Of a stretch of 64,000 nt of DNA, positions 19,676 to 31,904 are shown piece after piece; the first letter of the stretch is position 1, and each line of letters opens with the position of its first letter. This DNA is from Lachnoclostridium sp. UBA3262. GTDB lineage: Bacteria > Bacillota > Clostridia > Lachnospirales > Lachnospiraceae. A model generated the notes under the pieces. It saw only the letters and a list, made by a program, of their open reading frames with translations, did not search any database and had not been told where the DNA came from. The stretch is taken from the NCBI GenBank assembly GCA_002362575.1, contig DEUM01000009.1, positions 43,639 to 107,638 on the forward strand. Direction: 5' to 3'. Made by a program: the position numbers and the translations under genes.

Positions 19676-19915
19676 TTGAAGGAAGTAAGCAAAGTTACAC
19701 GGGTGCTTAGCATTTACAATAAACTGGTCGGAGGGGAAATTGTAAATAAAGTATTTGAGGCGAATCGATTTGGTGTGAGTGAGAAATCAATTCAACGGGA
19801 TATTGACGAGATTCGAACATATTTATCGCAATCAATTGTTGATGGATATGGAATAGTTGGCGAAGTAGTTTATGATCAAGCGAAAAAGGGATATCGCCTG
19901 AAGCAGATTGTTTGA
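19676..19915 (+). CDS. Stand-alone winged HTH resembling the N-terminus of WYL-domain regulators (no WYL domain)
   Basis: RVLSIYNKLVGGEIVNK..EANRFGVSEKSIQRDIDEIRTYL...YDQAKKGYRL, followed by a stop codon. Confidence 0.7.
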   Translation: MKEVSKVTRVLSIYNKLVGGEIVNKVFEANRFGVSEKSIQRDIDEIRTYLSQSIVDGYGIVGEVVYDQAKKGYRLKQIV

Positions 19916-19998: not shown

Positions 19999-20952
19999 GT
20001 GGTGACAATAGTGAGTATAGTAATTGGTTCATTTAATATTAGGGATTTGAATTTTTCGAATGAAAGTAAAGATGGAGAAACACAAAAAAGAGATTTTCCA
20101 CTTATAGCAGATATGATAATTAAAGAAGGGTTTGATGTAGTTGCTATTCAAGAAGTAAATGCTCCCATGGCTTTGGAGAGAATAGTATTTTATTTAAATA
20201 AAAAGAAAAACCTTTTACATGAATGGGAATGCGACGCAAGTGGTAAAGCTGCAACTACCAATAATGATCCGGAAGGTTATGGATTTATTTGGAATAAAAA
20301 AAGAATTAGACTAATGGATATTTCAAGGAAAAATAATCCTACTTTTTATAATTGTGCTGGGGGAAAGAATGTCATCCGACCTCCATATTATGGCAGATTT
20401 ACAACAAGAGGTTTGCCTGGCGGTTCTAATTGTGAGATTAGGCTGGTCAATACGCATATTCATGATGCTAGTAGAGAACTTGAGCGTATTGCAGAATTCG
20501 ACGTTTTGGTCAAGCAGGTTTTGCCAAGGATATGTGATCATAATGAATTGCCAGTATTTAATGAGATGATGCCAGCATATACATTTTTACTTGGTGATTA
20601 CAATCTTAGGCTTGATAAGGGCGAGAGAGCCGATGTAAGAATAGAAAGTATCACACCAACCTTATATACAAACAAAAAGCGATATTATAAAACAGTACAA
20701 GAGGAGAAAACTTCCTTAAAAACGATTAAGATGATTGATCAAGATGCCGACTTGCGAGATTGTTATAAAAGCAATTATGATCATTTCACATATGAGTTTG
20801 ACTTGATTAGAAAACTAAAGCTACATGAAGAACGTGTTGAGGCTCTGGGGAAGTATTTTGGAAAAGAAAAGTCGGCACAAGAAATTCTGCAGTTATATAG
20901 GGAAAAAGTTTCTGACCATGTGCCAATAAAAATGACTGTGGACTTAAAATAA
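19999..20952 (+). CDS. Endonuclease/exonuclease/phosphatase (EEP, DNase I-like) family protein
   Basis: Complete catalytic motif set: SFNI, DVVAIQEV, VNTH, LGDYN, YDH and SDHVPI. The start could be the GTG at 20011. Confidence 0.85.
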   Translation: MVTIVSIVIGSFNIRDLNFSNESKDGETQKRDFPLIADMIIKEGFDVVAIQEVNAPMALERIVFYLNKKKNLLHEWECDASGKAATTNNDPEGYGFIWNKKRIRLMDISRKNNPTFYNCAGGKNVIRPPYYGRFTTRGLPGGSNCEIRLVNTHIHDASRELERIAEFDVLVKQVLPRICDHNELPVFNEMMPAYTFLLGDYNLRLDKGERADVRIESITPTLYTNKKRYYKTVQEEKTSLKTIKMIDQDADLRDCYKSNYDHFTYEFDLIRKLKLHEERVEALGKYFGKEKSAQEILQLYREKVSDHVPIKMTVDLK

Positions 20953-20973
20953 AAATGAAAGGATAAGCTAAGG

Positions 20974-23559
20974 ATGCATAACGAGGTACTCGGGATTGAT
21001 AAACATACTGAAATGGAAAAACGACAGGCTGCTTACGCATTGAATATGTGTACTGTTTCGGTTTCTCAAATTGTGGATTATAACGATGCCTATATTATGG
21101 AACAGGAATATGAAGCGATTTTGAATAATTTGAATCTTAAACAGATGCCCAAAGACGAGGCACTACTAAGAATATTGTCTGAAATCATGAATACAATTAC
21201 ATTTTTCCGTATTCAGGATATTAGAAAAAAACAAATAGAAAAGAAATATGAATCACGTATGAAGAATGCAATCTGGTCGGCTGTGCCAAGTCTAAATGTA
21301 GTAGTTTCGGGGAACCCCGTAGCAATTGCATTGGCATTAGTTACACAAATAGGCTCAGGATATATGAATTATAGAAAAGAAAAAGCTAGTGCTGGAACCG
21401 ATAAAGAAGATGCTGAAATAGAACTGGAAATTACTGCAATTGAGCAATTGAATTCATTAAAAAGAGAACTTTTTACTACAGCTTGGAGATTGGCAGATGA
21501 ATATGATTTCGAGGATGAATGGAGACTGACAGAAAAACAAATAAAACAATATAATGATATTTTGATTGATTATGATGAATTAAGAAAATATGAACGGTTA
21601 GATGCAATGAAAGAGAATTTTTCTGCATATCCTCCATTTTGGTATTATATTGGAAATGCAGCCAACAATATTGCCAAAAGCCACGAACTTGAGTTGAGTG
21701 TTGAGACCAGGCAGAAGTATAAAGAAATTGCATTAGCTCATTTTGAAAAGTATGAGGAAGTGAGTGAGAACAGTATTCTTCGTCAGGATCAATTAAATTC
21801 ATCATGTGCTTTGGAGCATGTTGAATTATTGCTAGAAGACAATAATTTTGACAGAGATAAGGTGGTAAAACTAATTACTAAAGCTGCAAAAATGTCTGGC
21901 AATGCATTTGATGTTCTGCAGGTATGCTCAATTGCATTTTTGAAAATAAATGAATTAGAAGGTGCAAGTAGAATTCTGAGAATTCTTGTAAATGAAGATT
22001 ATAACAAAACTGTAAATGCTCAATTATTAAGTGGAATATATGTAAGAGAAAAAAATAAAATTGATTATGATATTCTTACAACTAGAGTTGCACCTCAATA
22101 TCTTTATCCTCTGCCTTTGCAAGGAGAGGATGAAGCTGTTTTAGAAGCAAAATTTGAACAACAACAAAAGAAGGTACTAAAAGGGAAATATAAAAAAGTC
22201 CTTGAGAAGACTATTGATAAGTATTCAATGGAATTGTATAGAGAGATTTCTATTTTTGACTTAGATGAAGAATATTCCGATGATTTTTTTGAAAATAGTA
22301 AAAGGGCTAAGAAAACCCGTATTATGTCGGCAAAGAGAATGTTTCTAGATGATTCCAAGCGCGATTATTATCTTGAAAGAATGAGTTCAATTAATCTTCC
22401 GACAGAATATGTTGATATATTAGAGAATATGTTTGGGGCATTATTTAAAACATCAATTTATTCAGATCCTGTTCTTCAAGGAGAGGCTTTAGATAGGACA
22501 AGCAATGCGATTGTTACTTATCGAGATGCTATTAATTCAATTCAGGAAGATATTAAGAACCAATCATTTTCATTGAAAGATTACGAAAGGATTCAGAGGG
22601 TGGGTATATATCATTTTGTGAAAGATGCATTTAACATGTTATATCATCAGACGTGTAAAATGATTGACGGTGCTGTAATGAACGATTTATTATCAATGGA
22701 AGGTGATTTGTTATCTTACTGTGATAGAGTAGGGATTGCAATGCCAGAAATTTCCTTGGGTGGAGAGTGCAGTAATAAAGATTTTGATGAACCGAAGGAA
22801 TTGTTTGATGTGAGTATGTTTGGAGCCAAGGCAATATCTGTTAAGCGTGATTTGGACTATATTAACAATATGCTCGCTTTTATTGAGAATAAGATGAATG
22901 ATGCAAATGCAGGAGAAAACTTGGTTATTTTATACAGAGGTAATGTAGAATTTGAGCGATATTTCAATGATGTAGCATTTGAAAAATATCCTTCACTCAA
23001 GTCAAATTCATTAATGATAATAAAAAGTAATGGAAAGACAAGGACTGACTTAATCTATACAACGGAAGGTATTGTTTATGTTCAGAAGGGCAAGGTTAAG
23101 AAGAAAACACCATATGCAGATGTTATATATGCACAAGATAATTTGGTGTTATTCGGAACAAAGTATAAGAACGACTCAATCAACATTGCAGTTTTATATG
23201 ACATTGTAAAGGGAATTGACAAGAAGTTTATCAACGTCAACGATTTAGAACAGAAAATTGAGTATGTAGGAAAAATTGATGCTAAATCATTAAATGAATG
23301 GTTTAAGAGTCGCCCAGATGCTATGGATGATAGTGTAACAAGGGTTTATGCTTGGCCAAATAAGGAATTATTTAATGGATTAGGCTATTGCTTGCAGGAA
23401 GATTTAGACAGTGAAAGGTATTTGCTTCAGTTTTATTATGATAATGAATCAAATGATATTATTGGATTACGAATTGTAGAGTTTGATGCAATTGATGAAT
23501 CATTAAAGTCTAAACTGAACGGTGCAGGTGGTGTAATTCAATTGGAAAAAGGGGGGTGA
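20974..23559 (+). CDS. Large hypothetical protein: hydrophobic segment plus coiled coil, TPR-like helices, PH-like segment and a C-terminal module shared with the downstream genes
   Basis: 861-aa ORF with RBS aagga. The domain reading is by eye only. Confidence 0.75.
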   Translation: MHNEVLGIDKHTEMEKRQAAYALNMCTVSVSQIVDYNDAYIMEQEYEAILNNLNLKQMPKDEALLRILSEIMNTITFFRIQDIRKKQIEKKYESRMKNAIWSAVPSLNVVVSGNPVAIALALVTQIGSGYMNYRKEKASAGTDKEDAEIELEITAIEQLNSLKRELFTTAWRLADEYDFEDEWRLTEKQIKQYNDILIDYDELRKYERLDAMKENFSAYPPFWYYIGNAANNIAKSHELELSVETRQKYKEIALAHFEKYEEVSENSILRQDQLNSSCALEHVELLLEDNNFDRDKVVKLITKAAKMSGNAFDVLQVCSIAFLKINELEGASRILRILVNEDYNKTVNAQLLSGIYVREKNKIDYDILTTRVAPQYLYPLPLQGEDEAVLEAKFEQQQKKVLKGKYKKVLEKTIDKYSMELYREISIFDLDEEYSDDFFENSKRAKKTRIMSAKRMFLDDSKRDYYLERMSSINLPTEYVDILENMFGALFKTSIYSDPVLQGEALDRTSNAIVTYRDAINSIQEDIKNQSFSLKDYERIQRVGIYHFVKDAFNMLYHQTCKMIDGAVMNDLLSMEGDLLSYCDRVGIAMPEISLGGECSNKDFDEPKELFDVSMFGAKAISVKRDLDYINNMLAFIENKMNDANAGENLVILYRGNVEFERYFNDVAFEKYPSLKSNSLMIIKSNGKTRTDLIYTTEGIVYVQKGKVKKKTPYADVIYAQDNLVLFGTKYKNDSINIAVLYDIVKGIDKKFINVNDLEQKIEYVGKIDAKSLNEWFKSRPDAMDDSVTRVYAWPNKELFNGLGYCLQEDLDSERYLLQFYYDNESNDIIGLRIVEFDAIDESLKSKLNGAGGVIQLEKGG

Positions 23560-23563
23560 TCGT

Positions 23564-23941
23564 ATGGGAATAGGTGCAATGATAGTATCATTGGTAGTTG
23601 CTGGGCTGATTGTTACAACTGTAATTACAATTGTTTACTTGACTGCTAAAAAACTTAAAGAATTAATTCAAAAAAGAAAAGAAAAGAATAGAAAATCCAA
23701 GGTTGCATTTGGAGAAACGAGAAAAATTGTAAAAGAAAATGCTAGGGAAATTCTAAAGAATGCGCCGTCAATGACGATGGATGATCTTGAGAGAACATGT
23801 GAAGAGACTCCATATTTTGTTGTTGACTATGACTCTGAAACCGATGAGGTGTCGGATTATGCAACAATAAAAACTGACAGCACTGACGAAAAGATTGAAA
23901 GTATTATGAACCAGAATGATGGTATTATTTTATTTGATTAG
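23564..23941 (+). CDS. Small single-pass membrane protein (shared-module family)
   Basis: N-terminal TM; C-terminus YDSETDEV...DEKIESIMNQNDGIILFD. Confidence 0.75.
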   Translation: MGIGAMIVSLVVAGLIVTTVITIVYLTAKKLKELIQKRKEKNRKSKVAFGETRKIVKENAREILKNAPSMTMDDLERTCEETPYFVVDYDSETDEVSDYATIKTDSTDEKIESIMNQNDGIILFD

Positions 23942-23950
23942 GAGGAAAAA

Positions 23951-24337
23951 ATGGTAAGAGAAATATTAATTGGAACAGGTGGAGTAATTATTGTTGCGGC
24001 TATTATTGCGGCGATAAAATATAAGATGGCTCATCAAGATGATGGTGAAATTGAAAGAATTTTTGTTGATGAGTTGAATATGGGTGAAATTAAGAAATGG
24101 TTTGTTGATAAGATGACTAATGATTCGATGATAGGTATTGTTTTTCTTCCTACAAAAGAGAATGTTAATAAGTGGAAAGTAAAAATGCCTGAGCAAAACA
24201 ATGTTTTAATTCAACTTATTTATAGTAAAGCTAATGACAAGATGATTTCATACAGAGAAGTAGGATATGCTGAAATTAGTGAAAAGGTAAAGAATCTTTT
24301 GGATATGAATGGCGGAACTATAGTAATCGAAAAATAA
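23951..24337 (+). CDS. Small single-pass membrane protein (shared-module family)
   Basis: RBS ggagg; N-terminal TM; EIKKWF...LIQLIY...SEKVKNLLDMNGGTIVIEK. Confidence 0.8.
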   Translation: MVREILIGTGGVIIVAAIIAAIKYKMAHQDDGEIERIFVDELNMGEIKKWFVDKMTNDSMIGIVFLPTKENVNKWKVKMPEQNNVLIQLIYSKANDKMISYREVGYAEISEKVKNLLDMNGGTIVIEK

Positions 24338-24356
24338 GTGATAATGGAGGTGCGAT

Positions 24357-24623
24357 ATGCTTGGGTGGTTATTACTTGGAGCATTGTTCACAGCAGCGGT
24401 AATTATAATATGTGTTTCATATTTAGATAAAAAAACGGCAATGAATAAGCTTAGAGAGAAGAGTATCCATAAAGGCGTAGTGAGGGATATTTTTCAATCA
24501 GGAAATGTTACACATATAAAACTTGACGCTATAGATACAGATGGTAATGAGAAAGAAGTTGAGTTTGAGGCAGATGCTTACAACTCCTATGAAATTAGAA
24601 AAGGAATGACAATAGTAGCATAA
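24357..24623 (+). CDS. Small single-pass membrane protein
   Basis: RBS ggaggtg; TM LGWLLLGALFTAAVIIICVSYL followed by a short beta-rich tail. Confidence 0.75.
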   Translation: MLGWLLLGALFTAAVIIICVSYLDKKTAMNKLREKSIHKGVVRDIFQSGNVTHIKLDAIDTDGNEKEVEFEADAYNSYEIRKGMTIVA

Positions 24624-24637
24624 AGGAGAAAAACGAA

Positions 24638-25027
24638 ATGTCTGAAAGTTTATCTAAATTGTCAAAAGCTGTAGAGGCATTTACAGATGTATTGACAGAA
24701 GGTATAGATTCAAAGAAGAATATTGGAATATATAAATACGAGGATTTTATTAAGTTTTTTAGAGAAAACAGAAAAGAGTATTCTATTATCAAAAAATGTA
24801 CTATTTCTGTGACAAATGTTAATGAATTTGATGGAGTTAGGTTTCCAGAGAAAAAATTTCTTATTAGAATTGTTTTATTGGATAAAAATAATAGTCCCAT
24901 TTCAATTAATGGTAAAGACGATGAAATCTTGGGAAATATAACAATTGCTAACTCGATTGACAATAAATTAGTAGAATTTATGGGTAAAAGAACAGAGAAG
25001 ACTGTTGTCTGGAAGGGAGAAAAATAG
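24638..25027 (+). CDS. Small soluble or peripheral protein, probably a divergent member of the shared-module family
   Basis: RBS aaggag; YEDFIKFF...FLIRIVLLDKNN...SIDNKLVEFM. Confidence 0.7.
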   Translation: MSESLSKLSKAVEAFTDVLTEGIDSKKNIGIYKYEDFIKFFRENRKEYSIIKKCTISVTNVNEFDGVRFPEKKFLIRIVLLDKNNSPISINGKDDEILGNITIANSIDNKLVEFMGKRTEKTVVWKGEK

Positions 25028-25354
25028 ATGTTGCCATTAATACCAATTATAGCCTTGATAGGTCCTGCTCTAGCTATGGGAGCGGTAGTATATTTAGCGG
25101 TAAAACTTACTATTTCTTTTTTAAAAAAATATAAACAAAAGAAAAATTCAAAGATAATGGCTGCTTATGTTGGGGACTTGATGAAAAATGCTCCAACGAT
25201 GTCTTTAGACGGTTTGGATGATGAGGATGTTGTTCTTGCTGAGTATGATGAAGACGAGGATGAATTAGTCCAGGATATTAGTATTTCGAGAGATACTGAT
25301 GAAAAGGTATCCGGAATAATCAAAAATAATGGTGGAATCGTGGTGTTTGAATAA
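25028..25354 (+). CDS. Small single-pass membrane protein, paralog of 23564-23941
   Basis: KNAPTMSLD vs KNAPSMTMD; DEKVSGIIKNNGGIVVFE; start abuts the upstream stop (tagatg). Confidence 0.8.
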   Translation: MLPLIPIIALIGPALAMGAVVYLAVKLTISFLKKYKQKKNSKIMAAYVGDLMKNAPTMSLDGLDDEDVVLAEYDEDEDELVQDISISRDTDEKVSGIIKNNGGIVVFE

Positions 25355-26697
25355 TGTTAGTTTATTTATACTTTTCAAAAAATAAAATATCCCAAATAAA
25401 TAATCTTGATTATGTGAAAGAAAATGTTGCAAAGAGTATAACGAAAGCTTTTAATATGTCTGCAACTATTAAGCGCTCTGATATAAGTGTACGATGTGGC
25501 AAAATATCAAAGGGTATTGATGTGTTTTTAGTAATAGATTCGAATCCATTTGCTGGAAATAGTGAAACTGCGATTGCAATGACTAAAATAAAGGAGTTAA
25601 TTAAGACTATTATTCAGACGGATCAATCTAGTCAGCTCGAATATAAAATTACATATAAGATTGAGAAAAACCATTCACCTATGGGGATAGAATATATGGG
25701 AGGTGGTGTTTTGCAAGGTAATGAGTCTGTTCACCAATTCGATAATGATGAAGAGGTGTCTGAACTTGATTATGCAAGTAGAGCTCAAGCATATGTCCCA
25801 GTAGCCCCAGCATATTCTTTTGATAGAGTAATTCTTCCCGAAGATGTTCTAGAAAAAATTGACTCTGCAATTAATATCCTTAGATATGAAAGAAGAGTTT
25901 TTCAAGAGTGGGGATTGTATGAAATCCAACCGAACCCATCCTCATCATTAAGTTTTTATGGACCATCTGGAACTGGAAAAACTATGGCGGCCGAAGCTAT
26001 AGCAGATAAACTTAGAAAGAAAATACTTAAAGTGAGTTATGCTGACGTTGAAAGTAAGTACCATGGCGAGGGACCTAAAATGGTTAAAGCTATTTTTTGG
26101 GCAGCAGAAAAAGAAGATGCGGTTTTGTTTTTTGATGAGGCGGATTCTTTGCTGTCAAAAAGATTAACTAATGTTTCGCAAGGATCTGAACAAGCAATTA
26201 ATTCGATGAGAAGTCAACTATTGATTTGCCTAGAGGAATTTAAGGGTATCGTGATTTTTGCTACTAATTTGGTTGTGAACTATGATAATGCATTCTTAAC
26301 ACGTTTGATTAGTGTTGAATTTAAATATCCGGATGCACCAACTAGAAAAAGAATATGGGATGTTCACGTTAAGTCTTCTGCAAATAAAAAATTAAATATA
26401 CCATTGGCAGATGATGTTGATACTGAAGAATTGGCGGGAAAATACGACTTTGCAGGGCGAGAAATCAGAAATGCTGTTATCTCAGCCTGTGTTAATGTTG
26501 CTATGAATGAACGTGAAATTGTAAAACAAGAAGATTTTATAAAAGCCTGCGATAAAATTGTTGAAGAAAAAGCGGGGGTTGCTAGTGCTAGTGATCATAC
26601 AACAATGAGTGAAAAAGAGAAGGAAGCTCTTAAGCAAGCGTTAATTTCAAAGATAAAAGAAGGAGGTATTACTAATGTTTCTACGACCACTGAGTAA
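25354..26697 (+). CDS. Classic-clade AAA+ ATPase with a novel N-terminal domain
   Basis: Walker A GPSGTGKT, pore loop SKYHGEG, Walker B VLFFDEAD, SRH IFATNL..NYDNAFLTR, lid FAGREIRNAV. Confidence 0.9.
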   Translation: MLVYLYFSKNKISQINNLDYVKENVAKSITKAFNMSATIKRSDISVRCGKISKGIDVFLVIDSNPFAGNSETAIAMTKIKELIKTIIQTDQSSQLEYKITYKIEKNHSPMGIEYMGGGVLQGNESVHQFDNDEEVSELDYASRAQAYVPVAPAYSFDRVILPEDVLEKIDSAINILRYERRVFQEWGLYEIQPNPSSSLSFYGPSGTGKTMAAEAIADKLRKKILKVSYADVESKYHGEGPKMVKAIFWAAEKEDAVLFFDEADSLLSKRLTNVSQGSEQAINSMRSQLLICLEEFKGIVIFATNLVVNYDNAFLTRLISVEFKYPDAPTRKRIWDVHVKSSANKKLNIPLADDVDTEELAGKYDFAGREIRNAVISACVNVAMNEREIVKQEDFIKACDKIVEEKAGVASASDHTTMSEKEKEALKQALISKIKEGGITNVSTTTE

Positions 26698-27076
26698 TGA
26701 TCAAAAAGAGTTGTTTTTGAATTTGGCTTTAGCCGCAGCATCGGCAAATAATCTAATTGAAGATTCTGAGAGACTTTTGCTTGTTGCATATGCAGATGAA
26801 ATGTCTATTGATGTTAATAAGGCATCAATGATGCAGATGGATGAAATATGCAGAAAATTAAAACAAATTTCTAATTCAAAAGAGTTAAATCAGATAGCTT
26901 TTGAGATTGTTGGCATGATGATGATCGACAATGAATATGACAAAGAGGAGAAAACATTTATTTTGAAGATGGCTGAAATTTTTGAAATTCCACAAAGTCG
27001 AATAGATAAAATGTTTAGTTGTGCTAATGAGTATTCGGCGTTGATAAAGAAAATTAATGTTTTAATGTATGAGTAA
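26675..27076 (+). CDS. TerB-like (tellurite-resistance TerB fold) protein
   Basis: Two helical halves: ELFLNLALAAASANNLIEDSE and MMMIDNEYDKEEKTFILKMAEIFEI. Confidence 0.7.
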   Translation: MFLRPLSNDQKELFLNLALAAASANNLIEDSERLLLVAYADEMSIDVNKASMMQMDEICRKLKQISNSKELNQIAFEIVGMMMIDNEYDKEEKTFILKMAEIFEIPQSRIDKMFSCANEYSALIKKINVLMYE

Positions 27077-27096
27077 TCAGATTTAATTCAAGATTG

Positions 27097-27128
27097 AAGG
27101 TGCGAAGAAATTCGCGCCTTTTGTATTT
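27097..27128 (+). terminator. Intrinsic terminator closing the AT-rich operon
   Basis: aaggtgcgaa-gaaa-ttcgcgcctt followed by ttgtattt. Confidence 0.75.
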
Positions 27129-27785: not shown

Positions 27786-27823
27786 ATAAAGACTTGAACC
27801 TGACAGATGATTTTCTAATCAAT

Positions 27824-27853
27824 TGTTACTATTTACAGCTATATGGAATAACA
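27824..27853. mobile_element. 30-bp imperfect palindrome flanked by a duplicated atcaat
   Basis: atcaat-[tgtta...taaca]-atcaat in copy 1 versus a single atcaat in copy 2. Confidence 0.55.
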
Positions 27854-28685
27854 ATCAATCGTGTGATGTCAGATGCTACTTATGGAGAGGAGTTTGCCAA
27901 AATTCTTTTGGGAACTATTTTCCATAGAGAAATAGGACCGTTGGTTGTCATCCCACAGAAGGTAGAGTATGGGATAGAGACAGAATGTCACGGTATCCGG
28001 TTAGATGTATATATGGAGGAAAAAGATGCCGGTATTTTTGACATGGAAGCAGACCAGAACTGGTCATTAAAAGACAGACAGTCACTGCCAAAGAGAGTAA
28101 GGTTATACCATGCAAAGATAGACGCCGGGGTTTTGGAAAGCGGAGGCGAGTATAGAGACTTGCGGAATGTCTGTGTCATCTTTATTACAACCTATGATCC
28201 ATTTGATAAGAAACGTATGGTTTACACGATTAAGAATTGCTGCACAGAGGAGCCGGACCTCCCCTACGAGGATGGTGCAAGGACAATTTTTCTCTATACA
28301 AGGGGAGTGAATGGGAATCCGCCTGCAGATTTGGCAGAATTGCTCCGGTATATGGAGGACACGACGGAGAAAAATGTGTGCAACGAAAGCATTAGAAGAC
28401 TTCATGAGATGGTTCAGCATACAAAACAGGATGCGAAAGCGGGGTTGGCTTATATGAAGTGGTATGAGATTGAGACAATGTGCAGGGAGGAAGGGGAATT
28501 TTTATTTGCTATTAAGATGGTAAGGAAGTTATTGCAGGAGCAGCAGACAATAGATAAGATTTCCCAGCTTACAGAACTGCCATATACCTTGATAGAGAAA
28601 ATCATGGAACAACTTAATCTTCATCCGGAATGGGATAACGAACAGATATTAGAGAAGATAGAAAAGTAAAATCATTAGGAATTGT

Positions 28686-31019: not shown

Positions 31020-31904
31020 ATGCTGAAAAGGACACTAAAAGACTTGAACCTGACGGATGATTTTCTAATCAATCGTGTGATGTCAGATGCTACTTATGGA
31101 GAGGAGTTTGCCAAGATTCTTTTGGGAACTATTTTCCATAGAGAAATAGGACCGTTGGTTGTCATCCCACAGAAGGTAGAGTATGGGATGGAGACAGAAT
31201 GTCATGGTATTCGGTTAGATGTATATATGGAGGAAAAGGATGCCGGTATTTTTGACATGGAAGCAGACCAGAACTGGTCATTAAAAGACAGACAGTCATT
31301 GCCGAAGAGAGTAAGGTTTTACCATGCCAAGATAGATTCCGGGGCATTGGAGAGCGGAGGCGAGTACAGGGATTTGCGGAATGTCTGCGTCATCTTTATT
31401 ACAACCTATGATCCATTTGATAAGAAACGTATGGTGTACACGATTAAGAATAGTTGCACAGAGGAGCCGGACCTTCCCTACGAGGATGGTGCGAGAACGA
31501 TTTTTCTCTATACAAGGGGCGTGAATGGGAATCCGCCTGCGGATTTGTCAGAATTACTCCGGTATATGGAGGATACCACGGAGAAAAATGTGTGCAACGA
31601 AAGCATTAGAAGACTTCATGAGATGGTTCAGCATACGAAGCAGGATGCGAAAGCGGGGTTGGCTTATATGAAGTGGTATGAGATTGAAAGTATGTGCAGG
31701 GAGGAAGGCAGAGAAGAAGGCAGAAAAGAGAGGCAATTGTTTACGATTAAAATCATAAAGAACTTAGTAAGCCGGAATGAGTCAACAGAAGAAATATCTA
31801 AGCTTATCGAATTGCCATATGCGTCGGTAGAGGAAATCGTGAAACAATTCAAACTTCATCCGGAATGGGATAACGAACAGATATTAGAGAAAATAGAAAA
31901 GTAG
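31020..31904 (+). CDS. Rpn family recombination-promoting nuclease / putative transposase (PD-(D/E)XK_2), intact copy
   Basis: LTDDFLINRVM, GIRLDVY, DMEADQ, RVRFYHAKID, VCVIFITTYDPF, IFLYTRG and REEGREEG motifs. Confidence 0.85.
   Translation: MLKRTLKDLNLTDDFLINRVMSDATYGEEFAKILLGTIFHREIGPLVVIPQKVEYGMETECHGIRLDVYMEEKDAGIFDMEADQNWSLKDRQSLPKRVRFYHAKIDSGALESGGEYRDLRNVCVIFITTYDPFDKKRMVYTIKNSCTEEPDLPYEDGARTIFLYTRGVNGNPPADLSELLRYMEDTTEKNVCNESIRRLHEMVQHTKQDAKAGLAYMKWYEIESMCREEGREEGRKERQLFTIKIIKNLVSRNESTEEISKLIELPYASVEEIVKQFKLHPEWDNEQILEKIEK

What the first reader, a model, noticed from the sequence alone, without database searches (positions are those of the whole stretch)
23254..25354. One unnamed C-terminal module repeated in four or five consecutive gene products
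Sequence, aligned by eye. 861-aa protein: SLNEWF..VYAWPNKE..YLLQFYYDNESNDIIGLRIVEFDAIDESLKSKLNGAGGVIQLEK. 128-aa protein: EIKKWF..IVFLPTKE..VLIQLIYSKANDKMISYREVGYAEISEKVKNLLDMNGGTIVIEK. 125-aa protein: YFVVDYDSETDEV..DSTDEKIESIMNQNDGIILFD. 108-aa protein: VVLAEYDEDEDEL..RDTDEKVSGIIKNNGGIVVFE. The 129-aa protein is a weaker match (DFIKFF..FLIRIVLLDKNN..SIDNKLVEFM). Three of these also have an N-terminal TM helix. Inference: diverged paralogous subunits that co-assemble into a hetero-oligomer at the membrane, with a conserved C-terminal strand (GG-h-h-x-h-E/D) that could be the polymerisation element or the AAA+ recognition tag.
Basis: partly seen in the sequence, partly recalled or inferred. 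Interest (0 to 1): 0.85.

Follow-up and report, generated by a model that had tools for sequence, protein, structure and literature searches.

The report
Shared C-terminal coupling domain, defence-like operon
Four neighbouring proteins (not five) end in the same unnamed ~95-residue domain, which appears only where a nuclease-plus-large-protein candidate phage-defence operon also carries small membrane proteins and a protein-unfolding ATPase, so it most likely couples these parts.

Summary
p861 (C-terminus), p128, p125 and p108 share one homologous ~95-aa C-terminal domain. Independent family profiles align at 99.3%, 95.7% and 80.3% probability. A profile built without any window sequence hits exactly these four of 779 frames (E 7e-29 to 1e-15). 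The fifth candidate (p129) is not supported, and p88 belongs to a different class.

The domain has no match in Pfam or NCBIfam, by PDB sequence search, or by Foldseek against PDB and BFVD. AlphaFold2 gives a confident β-α-β-α-β-β-α-β fold for p128, and the p861 C-terminus shows the same element order.

In 88 related loci the domain is all-or-none:
- When the ~870-aa protein carries it, small membrane proteins with it (19/19), a Cdc48/PAN-like AAA+ ATPase (19/19) and usually a TerB protein (16/19) are present.
- When the large protein lacks it, all of these are absent (0/29).

It nearly always sits at the extreme C-terminus. Its last helix and strand evolve in concert among the paralogues.

Best reading (0.55): a system-specific adaptor that joins the large protein, the membrane anchors and the AAA+ ATPase. 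This follows the logic of effector-associated domains. A defence role is inferred, not shown. I found no published description. The same scan had noted this operon on this same stretch only.

The parts
19676..19915 (+). 79-aa winged-HTH protein. It is the N-terminal remnant of the WYL regulator, which is full length (307-335 aa) in related loci.
   Evidence: An HMM built from the WYL regulators of related loci hits this ORF. Related loci carry PF13280 WYL proteins directly upstream of the EEP gene.
19999..20952 (+). EEP (DNase I-like) nuclease/phosphatase-fold protein, 317 aa. It is a core gene of the system in both the minimal and the extended architecture.
   Evidence: NCBIfam MnuA-family membrane nuclease E 2.8e-17, below the family cut-off. 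Pfam Exo_endo_phos is weak here and on record without a weak mark for one orthologue (L013). The motifs IQEV, GDYN and SDH can be read in the sequence. The gene is present next to the large protein in 52/56 minimal and 19/27 extended loci; the rest are mostly cut by contig ends.
20974..23559 (+). p861, the large core protein. It has N-terminal long helices with a hydrophobic hairpin (~residues 106-127), a TPR-like solenoid (~187-590), a beta-rich PH-like domain (~650-731) and the C-terminal module.
   Evidence: AlphaFold2 mean pLDDT 80.6. Foldseek finds only TPR proteins, E about 5e-3. Hydropathy. More than 1,156 homologues, none named and essentially none with a Pfam domain (one TPR hit).
23257..23550 (+). 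Module copy 1: the C-terminal domain of p861 (residues ~762-859).
   Evidence: Leave-window-out profile E 7e-29. hhalign 99.3% with the p128 family. Secondary-structure order beta-alpha-beta-alpha-beta-beta-alpha-beta, as in p128.
23564..23941 (+). p125: short-class single-pass membrane protein. N-terminal TM helix, K-rich flank, then the module (residues ~24-125) with an inserted 'MTMDDLE..CEETPY' segment.
   Evidence: Profile E 1e-22. hhalign short vs long class 95.7%. TM helix and flank.
23951..24337 (+). p128: long-class single-pass membrane protein. N-terminal TM helix, then the module (residues ~33-128).
   Evidence: AlphaFold2 pLDDT above 90 for most of the module (10-residue block means 91-96 from residue 41). 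Profile E 5e-17. BLASTP E 7e-9 to the p861 C-terminus.
24357..24623 (+). p88: a third class of N-anchored membrane protein with a small beta-rich C-terminal domain. It does not carry the module. It always follows the long-class gene.
   Evidence: Its own family (c88) is present in 17/19 extended loci. hhalign similarity to the module families is limited to the TM region. The same small domain is fused to DUF1232 in L008 and L025.
24638..25027 (+). p129: soluble protein of unknown family. It is an optional extra gene, always followed by a p108-type short-class gene where the contig continues. Homology to the module is not supported.
   Evidence: hhalign probability 2-9%. Not hit by the module profile. 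Found in only 5 loci: the window, L006, L020, L030 and L031.
25028..25354 (+). p108: second short-class membrane protein with the module (residues ~20-108). Its stop codon overlaps the AAA+ start codon.
   Evidence: BLASTP E 4e-14 to p125. Profile E 1e-15. Gap of -1 nt to the AAA+ gene. A short-class gene sits immediately before the AAA+ gene in 22/22 loci.
25354..26697 (+). Classical-clade AAA+ ATPase (447 aa) with an unrecognised ~190-aa N-terminal domain.
   Evidence: Pfam AAA E 3.8e-24. PADLOC IetA E 5e-24. NCBIfam PAN/CDC48/FtsH/IteA hits, all below their cut-offs. The nearest solved structures are VAT, p97 and Rpt2. The N-domain has no Pfam hit.
26675..27076 (+). TerB-domain protein (133 aa), overlapping the AAA+ gene by 23 nt.
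   Evidence: Pfam TerB at 18.8 bits here, below the gathering score. Orthologues score 27-31 bits against a cut-off of 24.4.
27096..27121 (+). Terminator-like hairpin that closes the operon.
   Evidence: 11-bp stem followed by a T-rich tail, 20 nt after the TerB stop codon. Gene gaps from the EEP gene to the TerB gene range from -23 to +21 nt.

Best explanation
The repeated segment is a real, unnamed, non-catalytic alpha/beta domain of about 95 residues. Its element order is beta-alpha-beta-alpha-beta-beta-alpha-beta, and it nearly always lies at the extreme C-terminus.

It marks the extended form of a two-gene core made of an EEP nuclease and a ~800-aa protein with a TPR region and a PH-like domain. 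Many relatives are preceded by a WYL regulator. In the extended form the large protein gains the domain at its C-terminus. The operon also gains:
- N-terminally anchored single-pass membrane proteins that carry the same domain on the cytoplasmic side (a 'long' and a 'short' class);
- a third small membrane protein without the domain;
- a Cdc48/PAN-like AAA+ unfoldase, encoded directly after a short-class gene;
- usually a TerB-domain protein.

I read the domain as a coupling adaptor. Through contacts made mainly by its last helix and terminal strand, it ties the large cytoplasmic protein to the membrane anchors and brings the set within reach of the AAA+ ATPase, which remodels or releases it.

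Shown: homology, the shared predicted secondary-structure order, the C-terminal position, the all-or-none co-occurrence, and the concerted evolution of the tail.
Inferred: physical contact, cytoplasmic topology, the action of the AAA+, and an anti-phage role of the whole operon.
For: Homology: see the observation check.

Shared predicted structure: p128 module pLDDT above 90 for most of its length. The same order of secondary-structure elements is predicted at p861 residues 762-857.

No catalytic signature: only one Gly is invariant across the three classes. W, Q and R are conserved only in the long class and in the large protein.

Restricted to this system: a search of 1.84 billion representatives finds 262 at E<=1e-3. 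Those listed are small proteins, ~860-890-aa proteins, or fragments of these. The own genome holds only the four copies.

Position: 134 of 139 representatives end within 3 residues of the module. 108 of 123 small ones have a TM-like segment before it.

Co-occurrence in loci with at least 2.5 kb downstream:
- Large protein with the module: 19/19 small module proteins, 19/19 AAA+, 16/19 TerB, 17/19 c88.
- Large protein without the module: 0/29 for each.

Tree: the extended form is one clade (SH-like support 0.89). A nested 7-tip subclade has lost the module and all accessory genes together (nesting support about 0.8).

Minimal extended locus L054: large protein with module, one short-class gene, AAA+ and EEP only.

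Gene order: a short-class gene immediately precedes the AAA+ gene in 22/22 loci. The window operon is tightly packed and has one terminator.

Concerted evolution of the last 21 columns:
- Paralogues within a lineage are 0.44 and 0.34 identical.
- Orthologues between lineages are 0.23 (large protein) and 0.28 (long class).
- The rest of the module shows the opposite pattern.
- Same-locus against other-locus permutation gives 0 of 5,000 for the tail, and p=0.07 and 0.49 for the other segments.

Precedent for the logic: effector-associated domains (PMC7159879).
Against: - No direct evidence of binding exists.
- The co-occurrence rests on few evolutionary events: one gain, plus one moderately supported loss.
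- The concerted-evolution signal is dominated by one lineage split. Within lineage 1 p=0.01; within lineage 2 there is no signal.
- The copies outside the large protein are fused only to TM helices, not to recognisable effector domains. What is being coupled to what therefore remains open.
- The mirror-tree correlation between the tail and the AAA+ N-domain (partial r 0.5-0.65) is matched by equally strong correlations with c88 and with the PH-like domain, so it carries no specific information.
- The defence role is circumstantial. It rests on the WYL regulator, the low-GC island, the sporadic distribution, the nuclease, and defence-like neighbours in some loci.
Confidence: 0.55

Rival explanations
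1. The module is mainly a docking or recognition element for the AAA+ N-domain. The module-bearing proteins are clients or adaptors of the unfoldase. They are engaged from their free C-termini and extracted, unfolded or disassembled. This would work like ESCRT-III subunits and Vps4, Msp1 and membrane proteins, or the C-terminal docking tails of ClpX adaptors. Contact between paralogues is not required.
For: - Strict co-occurrence of the module with the AAA+ (19/19 against 0/29).
- A short-class gene always lies directly upstream of, and is often translationally coupled to, the AAA+ gene (22/22).
- The module ends at the extreme C-terminus in 96% of representatives.
- The ATPase is of the substrate-threading classical clade, nearest VAT, p97 and Rpt, and the pore-loop sequence KYHG can be read in it.
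- Parallel change of the tail in all classes is what a shared partner would produce.
- L054 keeps only the large protein with module, one short-class gene and the AAA+.
Against: - No specific covariation with the AAA+ N-domain could be shown.
- The N-domain matches no known substrate- or adaptor-binding domain.
- The module is never fused to the AAA+ itself.
- This reading is not exclusive of the best explanation.
Confidence: 0.25
2. The module is a ligand- or target-binding sensor domain, for example for a phage component, a lipid or a nucleotide. It has been duplicated onto several membrane anchors and onto the large protein, and the copies act in parallel without touching each other or the AAA+.
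For: - The number of short-class copies varies from 1 to 4 per locus, and their sequences diverge strongly. This is typical of diversifying recognition parts.
- No known fold match constrains the function.
Against: - Nothing resembling a conserved binding-site residue set is shared by the three classes. Only one Gly is invariant.
- Parallel, identical changes of the tail across paralogues in one locus are hard to explain by independent sensors.
- The invariant adjacency to the AAA+ gene is unexplained.
Confidence: 0.15
3. The resemblance is chance or compositional similarity among small low-GC ORFs, and the small ORFs are not real genes.
For: - The region has about 33% G+C.
- Pairwise identities are low, at 15-30%.
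Against: - The profile built without window sequences hits only these four frames, at E 1e-15 or better.
- Profile-profile probabilities are 80-99%.
- Orthologues of each small gene are conserved in dozens of loci.
- A confident AlphaFold2 model exists.
Confidence: 0.02

Closest known systems
Effector-associated domains (EADs) and bacterial Death-like domains of NTP-dependent conflict systems (Kaur, Burroughs, Iyer, Aravind 2020, PMC7159879)
   Same: - A small non-enzymatic domain, with one copy fused to a terminus of a core protein.
- Further copies lie in proteins encoded by adjacent genes of the same operon.
- Copies within a locus resemble each other more than expected, here in the last helix and strand only.
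- An NTPase belongs to the system.
- For EADs, the published interpretation is coupling through homotypic contacts.
   Different: - No sequence match to any Pfam family, the named EADs included.
- The partner copies are fused only to a transmembrane helix, not to enzymatic effector or signalling domains.
- The domain is strictly C-terminal.
- The NTPase is a classical AAA+ unfoldase, not a MoxR/vWA, STAND or GTPase core.
- The hosts are unicellular gut Clostridia.
ESCRT-III subunits with Vps4 (also Msp1/ATAD1, and ClpX adaptors with C-terminal docking tails)
   Same: Several paralogous, membrane-associated small proteins carry a conserved element at the extreme C-terminus and are encoded with a substrate-threading AAA+ ATPase that has a separate N-domain. 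This is a 'works like' analogy, from established knowledge of those systems.
   Different: - The module is an alpha/beta domain, not an ESCRT-III/PspA helical hairpin.
- No MIT or other known domain is detected in the AAA+ N-terminus.
- The ATPase domain is nearest to VAT, p97 and Rpt.
- No homology is claimed.
IetAS (Gao et al. 2020 defence system: IetA ATPase plus IetS protease)
   Same: The AAA+ matches the PADLOC IetA models (E 5e-24, covering residues 77-444) and the NCBIfam anti-phage ATPase IteA model (E 6e-20).
   Different: - The score of 71.8 bits is far below the 510-bit equivalog cut-off.
- No IetS-like protease is in the operon.
- The partners are an EEP nuclease, a TPR protein, membrane proteins and TerB.
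TerB-containing defence and stress systems (the Ter cluster; Shango)
   Same: A TerB-domain protein is encoded with an ATPase in a defence-like operon.
   Different: There is no helicase and there are no TerB-N or TerB-C partner domains. TerB is dispensable in 3/19 extended loci.

Membership tests
Effector-associated domain (EAD) class, as defined in PMC7159879 | [quoted passage not shown] | tested here: met
   The module lies at the C-terminus of the large core protein in all 27 extended loci.
Effector-associated domain (EAD) class, as defined in PMC7159879 | Further copies are fused to effector or signalling domains, usually enzymatic, and are often encoded by adjacent genes | tested here: inconclusive
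   The copies are in adjacent genes. They are fused only to an N-terminal TM helix (108/123). It is unknown whether that helix is an effector.
Effector-associated domain (EAD) class, as defined in PMC7159879 | A small domain without enzymatic features | tested here: met
   About 95 residues. Only one Gly is invariant across the classes. No enzyme family matches.
Effector-associated domain (EAD) class, as defined in PMC7159879 | [quoted passage not shown] | tested here: inconclusive
   True for the last 21 columns only (0.445 same locus against 0.339 other loci; 0 of 5,000 permutations). Not true for the rest of the domain, where orthologues are closer.
Effector-associated domain (EAD) class, as defined in PMC7159879 | Sequence membership in one of the named EAD families | tested here: not met
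   No Pfam family is hit consistently by the 25 module sequences or by the whole proteins.
IetAS defence system | IetA-type AAA+ ATPase at family level | tested here: not met
   PADLOC IetA E 5e-24, but NCBIfam IteA_antiphage scores 71.8 bits against a cut-off of 510. PAN and CDC48 models score higher.
IetAS defence system | IetS subtilisin-like protease partner | tested here: not met
   No protease domain is found in any operon gene.
ESCRT-III / Vps4 | Subunits with the ESCRT-III/PspA helical-hairpin fold | tested here: not met
   The predicted module is a mixed alpha/beta domain. No Snf7 or PspA hit.
ESCRT-III / Vps4 | AAA+ with an N-terminal MIT domain that binds C-terminal motifs | tested here: not met
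   The N-terminal 190 residues have no Pfam hit at E<=0.05. Binding itself cannot be tested here.
TerB domain (PF05099) | Score above the Pfam gathering threshold | tested here: inconclusive
   p133 scores 18.8 bits against 24.4. Its orthologues in L006, L011 and L013 score 27.4-30.7 bits.
EEP / DNase I-like superfamily (PF03372) | Family score, plus the catalytic motifs (metal-binding Glu in 'QE', GDxN, SDH) | tested here: inconclusive
   Pfam 15.3 bits against 24.5 for p317. NCBIfam MnuA E 2.8e-17, below its cut-off. Orthologues have Exo_endo_phos hits on record. The motifs IQEV, GDYN and SDH are present in the sequence.
Known anti-phage defence systems (PADLOC-DB v2) | Core proteins match a system model | tested here: not met
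   The EEP protein, p861, p88 and p129 have no hit. p125 and p128 have only marginal unrelated hits at E above 1e-3. Only the AAA+ matches, to the IetA and TRIP13 models.

The most novel reading that the evidence does not exclude
The extended operon builds a membrane-bound hetero-oligomer of paralogous single-pass proteins and the large TPR protein, held together by the shared C-terminal domain. A dedicated AAA+ unfoldase assembles it or dismantles it from the free C-termini. This would be an ESCRT-III/Vps4-like or Msp1-like remodelling cycle used as the switch of a bacterial immune system: release of the nuclease, or membrane damage, on infection. The fold of the domain would have no solved relative.
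Probability: 0.2. Interest if true: 0.8.

Novelty: new variant of a known kind. Interest (0 to 1): 0.6.

Why it matters
The finding defines a protein domain family that has no name, no solved relative and no Pfam model. About 260 clusters at 50% identity carry it.

It also gives that domain a testable role. Nature has run the control experiment: the same nuclease-plus-TPR core exists with and without the domain, and the membrane proteins, the AAA+ unfoldase and TerB come and go with it.

If the coupling reading is right:
- It extends the adaptor-domain principle (Death-like domains and EADs) to membrane-anchored partners and to a classical AAA+ unfoldase.
- It points to the last ~20 residues as a swappable specificity element.
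- It flags a candidate multi-gene defence system of gut Lachnospiraceae that I found in no current catalogue.

Tried and rejected
1. p129 as a fifth member. A five-sequence profile against every module profile gives probability 2-9%. The alignment is co-linear but not significant.

2. p88 as a member. Only the TM region is similar. It belongs to a separate class.

3. Known domain or fold. Pfam, NCBIfam, PHROGs, PADLOC, the PDB sequence profile, and Foldseek against PDB and BFVD all gave nothing significant for the module. The best Foldseek result was E 0.075 with TM-score 0.29.

4. Recent gene conversion as the cause of the similar tails. There are no DNA-level repeats between the 3' ends of the four genes.

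5. Mirror-tree covariation of the module tail with the AAA+ N-domain. It is positive (partial r 0.50-0.65) but equally strong with c88 and the PH-like domain, so it is not specific and was not used as evidence.

6. Carriage on a plasmid or phage. There are no tblastn hits in PLSDB or INPHARED. One partial IMG/VR contig was found.

7. Close relatives among species-representative genomes. The pattern scan found only one truncated locus. HMM searches found the large protein in 1/399 genomes of the class and 5/400 genera of the family besides the own genome, all in the minimal form.

8. Literature. Three full-text searches gave no description of this operon or domain.

9. Transcription evidence.

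Full report
THE LOCUS

The finding lies in a low-GC stretch of the window, about 33% G+C against about 43% around it. One tightly packed plus-strand operon runs from 19999 to 27076. Gene gaps range from -23 to +21 nt. Most of the genes have a Shine-Dalgarno sequence. A terminator-like hairpin sits at 27096-27121.

Gene order:
- a 79-aa wHTH protein;
- an EEP-fold nuclease (317 aa);
- p861;
- p125, p128, p88, p129 and p108;
- a classical AAA+ ATPase (447 aa);
- a TerB-domain protein (133 aa).

CHECK OF THE OBSERVATION

Pairwise BLASTP inside the operon gives p108~p125 at E 4e-14. p128 matches p861 residues 738-859 at E 7e-9. p125 matches the p861 C-terminus at E 6e-4, and p108~p128 gives E 0.011. 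A six-frame search of the whole 2.67-Mb genome with p128 finds only itself and the p861 C-terminus, at E 1.8e-4.

I collected homologues of p861 (>1,156 proteins, none named), of p128 and of p125. Profile-profile alignment of the three independently built alignments gave:
- long class (p128) vs p861 C-terminus: 99.3% probability, E 1.7e-20, 99 columns;
- short class (p125/p108) vs long class: 95.7%, E 9e-9;
- short class vs p861 C-terminus: 80.3%, E 1.4e-5.

The alignment covers the whole ~95-residue unit. In the short class, the helix just after the TM segment and the 'KVAFGET' strand correspond to 'L..WFK' and 'RVYAWPN'. A ~15-residue insert ('MSMDELE..CEETPY') precedes the beta-hairpin.

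A profile built only from other loci hits exactly four of the 779 stop-to-stop frames of the window, and nothing else at E<=10:
- p861: 7e-29;
- p125: 1e-22;
- p128: 5e-17;
- p108: 1e-15.

The own genome has no further copy.

p129 fails all of these tests (probability 2-9%). p88 resembles the others only in its TM helix.

WHAT THE MODULE IS

AlphaFold2 on the p128 family alignment gives pLDDT above 90 for most of the module (10-residue block means 91-96 from residue 41). The element order is beta1-alpha1-beta2-alpha2-beta3-beta4-alpha3-beta5. The p861 model (mean pLDDT 80.6) shows the same order of elements at residues 762-857.

Nothing known matches it:
- Foldseek finds nothing significant in the PDB (best E 0.075, TM-score 0.29) or in BFVD.
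- Pfam, NCBIfam, PHROGs, PADLOC and a PDB sequence-profile search give no consistent hit.

Across the three classes only one Gly, just before the last strand, is invariant. W, Q and R are conserved only in the long class and in the large protein. There is no catalytic signature.

A profile search of 1.84 billion representative proteins finds 262 at E<=1e-3. Those listed are small proteins of 105-185 aa, proteins of ~860-890 aa, or fragments of these. In 134 of 139 representatives the protein ends within three residues of the module. 108 of 123 small ones have a TM-like segment before it.

In the window, p125, p128, p108 and also p88 begin directly with a hydrophobic helix followed by a K/R-rich flank. 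By the positive-inside rule this puts the modules in the cytoplasm. This is an inference.

THE SYSTEM AROUND IT

I collected 88 related loci that carry the large-protein gene, from gene look-ups, a metagenome scan and a representative genome. I scanned them with HMMs for each component. Two architectures appear.

- Minimal: (WYL regulator) - EEP - large protein of ~750-810 aa that ends after the PH-like domain.
- Extended: (WYL) - EEP - [long-class TM+module - c88 TM protein] - large protein with module - [1-4 short-class TM+module] - AAA+ - TerB. In the window's lineage the long/c88 pair lies downstream of the large gene instead.

Among loci with at least 2.5 kb downstream of the large gene:
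- large protein with the module: small module proteins 19/19, AAA+ 19/19, TerB 16/19, c88 17/19;
- large protein without the module: 0/29 for each.

These loci are kin, so this is not 48 independent trials. On a tree of the N-terminal 750 residues the extended form is one clade (SH-like support 0.89) nested in minimal forms. It contains a 7-tip subclade with no module and no accessory gene, whose nesting has support of about 0.8. That amounts to one gain and probably one joint loss.

Other points on gene content and order:
- A short-class gene immediately precedes the AAA+ gene in 22/22 loci. In the window the p108 stop codon overlaps the AAA+ start codon.
- Locus L054 keeps only the large protein with module, one short-class gene, the AAA+ and the EEP gene.

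THE OTHER PARTS

p861 has four regions:
- long N-terminal helices bearing a 22-residue hydrophobic hairpin with the conserved 'GxGYMNYR' motif;
- a TPR-like solenoid, which gives the only Foldseek hits (E about 5e-3);
- a beta-rich PH-like domain;
- the module.

The EEP protein keeps the IQEV, GDYN and SDH motifs. It matches the MnuA membrane-nuclease model at E 2.8e-17.

The AAA+ matches PAN, CDC48, FtsH and IetA/IteA models, all below their family cut-offs. It is nearest to VAT, p97 and Rpt2 among solved structures. Its first ~190 residues match nothing.

TerB is confirmed through orthologues that score above the Pfam threshold.

The 79-aa wHTH protein is the remnant of a WYL regulator that is full length in relatives.

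DISTRIBUTION

The large protein was found in 1 of 399 other genomes sampled from the class. It was found in 5 of 400 genus representatives of the family, all in the minimal form, and not in the same-genus relative. No PLSDB plasmid or INPHARED phage carries it. The public contigs come from a Lachnospiraceae MAG and from metagenomes, at least one of them labelled human gut.

A defence role is suggested by the sporadic distribution, the low-GC island, the WYL regulator, the nuclease, and defence-like neighbours in some loci (a STAND-type NTPase and an integrase in L012; an AAA_21-type ATPase in L008). This is circumstantial and untested.

THE C-TERMINAL HELIX AND STRAND

In the last 21 columns (alpha3-beta5), paralogues are more alike within a lineage than orthologues are between the two main lineages:
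- large protein vs long class within a lineage: 0.44 and 0.34 identity;
- large protein between lineages: 0.23;
- long class between lineages: 0.28.

In the rest of the module the opposite holds. Large-protein orthologues are 0.36-0.43 identical, and large vs long class is 0.20-0.28.

Same-locus pairs exceed other-locus pairs only in this tail (0.445 against 0.339; 0 of 5,000 permutations). Within lineage 1 p=0.01. Within lineage 2 there is no signal.

Example sequences:
- L008: 'NLQAQLEENNGIL' in the large protein and 'NLQAQLEENDGLI' in the long class.
- The window: 'ESLKSKLNGAGGVI' in the large protein and 'EKVKNLLDMNGGTI' in the long class.

The 3' ends of the four genes share no DNA repeat, so this is not recent gene conversion. 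The tail therefore evolves in concert. That is expected for a surface by which the paralogues contact each other or a common partner. The effective number of events is small.

MECHANISM

I commit to a coupling adaptor. The module ties the cytoplasmic large protein to N-anchored membrane proteins and brings the set to the AAA+ unfoldase, with alpha3-beta5 at the free C-terminus as the specificity element (confidence 0.55).

The main rival is that the module is chiefly the docking or engagement element for the AAA+. This would be like ESCRT-III/Vps4, Msp1, or ClpX adaptors with C-terminal tails. It is compatible with the same data and is not exclusive (0.25).

A parallel-sensor reading (0.15) does not explain the concerted tails or the fixed adjacency to the AAA+ gene. 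Chance is excluded.

I tried to separate the first two readings by mirror-tree covariation with the AAA+ N-domain. The signal (partial r 0.50-0.65) was equally strong for c88 and for the PH-like domain, so it is uninformative.

COMPARISON WITH WHAT IS KNOWN

The logic matches the effector-associated domains of Kaur et al. 2020: one copy on a core protein, further copies in adjacent genes, a small non-enzymatic domain, and lineage-specific similarity.

It is not one of the named EAD families. Its partner copies carry only a TM helix. It is strictly C-terminal. The NTPase is a classical AAA+.

It is not IetAS, because there is no protease and the AAA+ scores far below the family cut-off. It is not Shango, because there is no helicase. 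It is not an ESCRT-III homologue.

Three full-text literature searches found no description of the operon. That is a limit of those libraries, not proof of absence.

VERDICT

This is a real, unnamed domain family shared by four consecutive proteins. It is the hallmark of an extended variant of an uncharacterised nuclease/TPR candidate defence system. It is probably a coupling adaptor linked to an AAA+ unfoldase.

No multimer prediction was available.

Noticed in passing
window 24044-24119: p128 contains an internal tandem duplication of 39 nt (76% identical copies). It encodes 'GEIERIFVDELN' and 'GEIKKWFVDKMT', which fall on strand beta1 and helix alpha1 of the module model. The repeat is conserved in the window's lineage of long-class proteins but is not evident in the other lineage.
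   Followed up: partly
window 24638-25354; L006 14286-14978; L030 3262-3967; L031 9602-10406: The soluble p129-type gene is always followed directly by a p108-type short-class gene, as if the pair moved as a cassette. In L006 the pair lies after the TerB gene, next to another short-class gene.
   Followed up: partly
window 24357-24623; L008 6993-7667; L025 3089-3763: The small beta-rich C-terminal domain of p88 ('hDhhD...VEh.G..h..G..I') recurs at the end of a 225-aa DUF1232 membrane protein in two loci. A second, different shared C-terminal module therefore exists in the same system.
   Followed up: partly
window 19676-19915: The regulator is only a 79-aa wHTH protein, while related loci have a 307-335-aa WYL-domain protein at this position. 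The ligand-sensing WYL part is missing here, and only 83 nt separate the ORF from the EEP gene.
   Followed up: partly
L037-L044 (metagenome loci): A subclade of minimal loci (large protein of 788-796 aa) nests inside the extended clade. It has no remnant of the module and no accessory genes. This suggests that the whole accessory set was lost in one step.
   Followed up: partly
L054 5989-11374: An unusual extended locus with the order large protein+module - one short-class gene - AAA+ - EEP. It has no long-class, c88 or TerB gene, and may be the smallest working extended set.
   Followed up: no
L084 77-3553; L080 5929-8553: Some minimal-type large proteins carry other C-terminal extensions. 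One is 1,159 aa long. Another has a 'NGPVV' repeat tail. The C-terminus of this protein family seems to be a site where different appendages are added.
   Followed up: no
window 27794-28669 and 31020-31904: Two near-identical ~291-294-aa ORFs lie just downstream of the operon, interleaved with zinc-ribbon membrane protein genes. The first-stage notes also flagged these, as Rpn-like copies. They were not examined here.
   Followed up: no
P0261 (331 aa, from the representative search): One module-bearing protein has a ~230-residue soluble helical N-terminal part instead of a TM anchor, with no Pfam match. It is the only clearly different architecture seen among the proteins I read. Its genomic context was not examined.
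   Followed up: no
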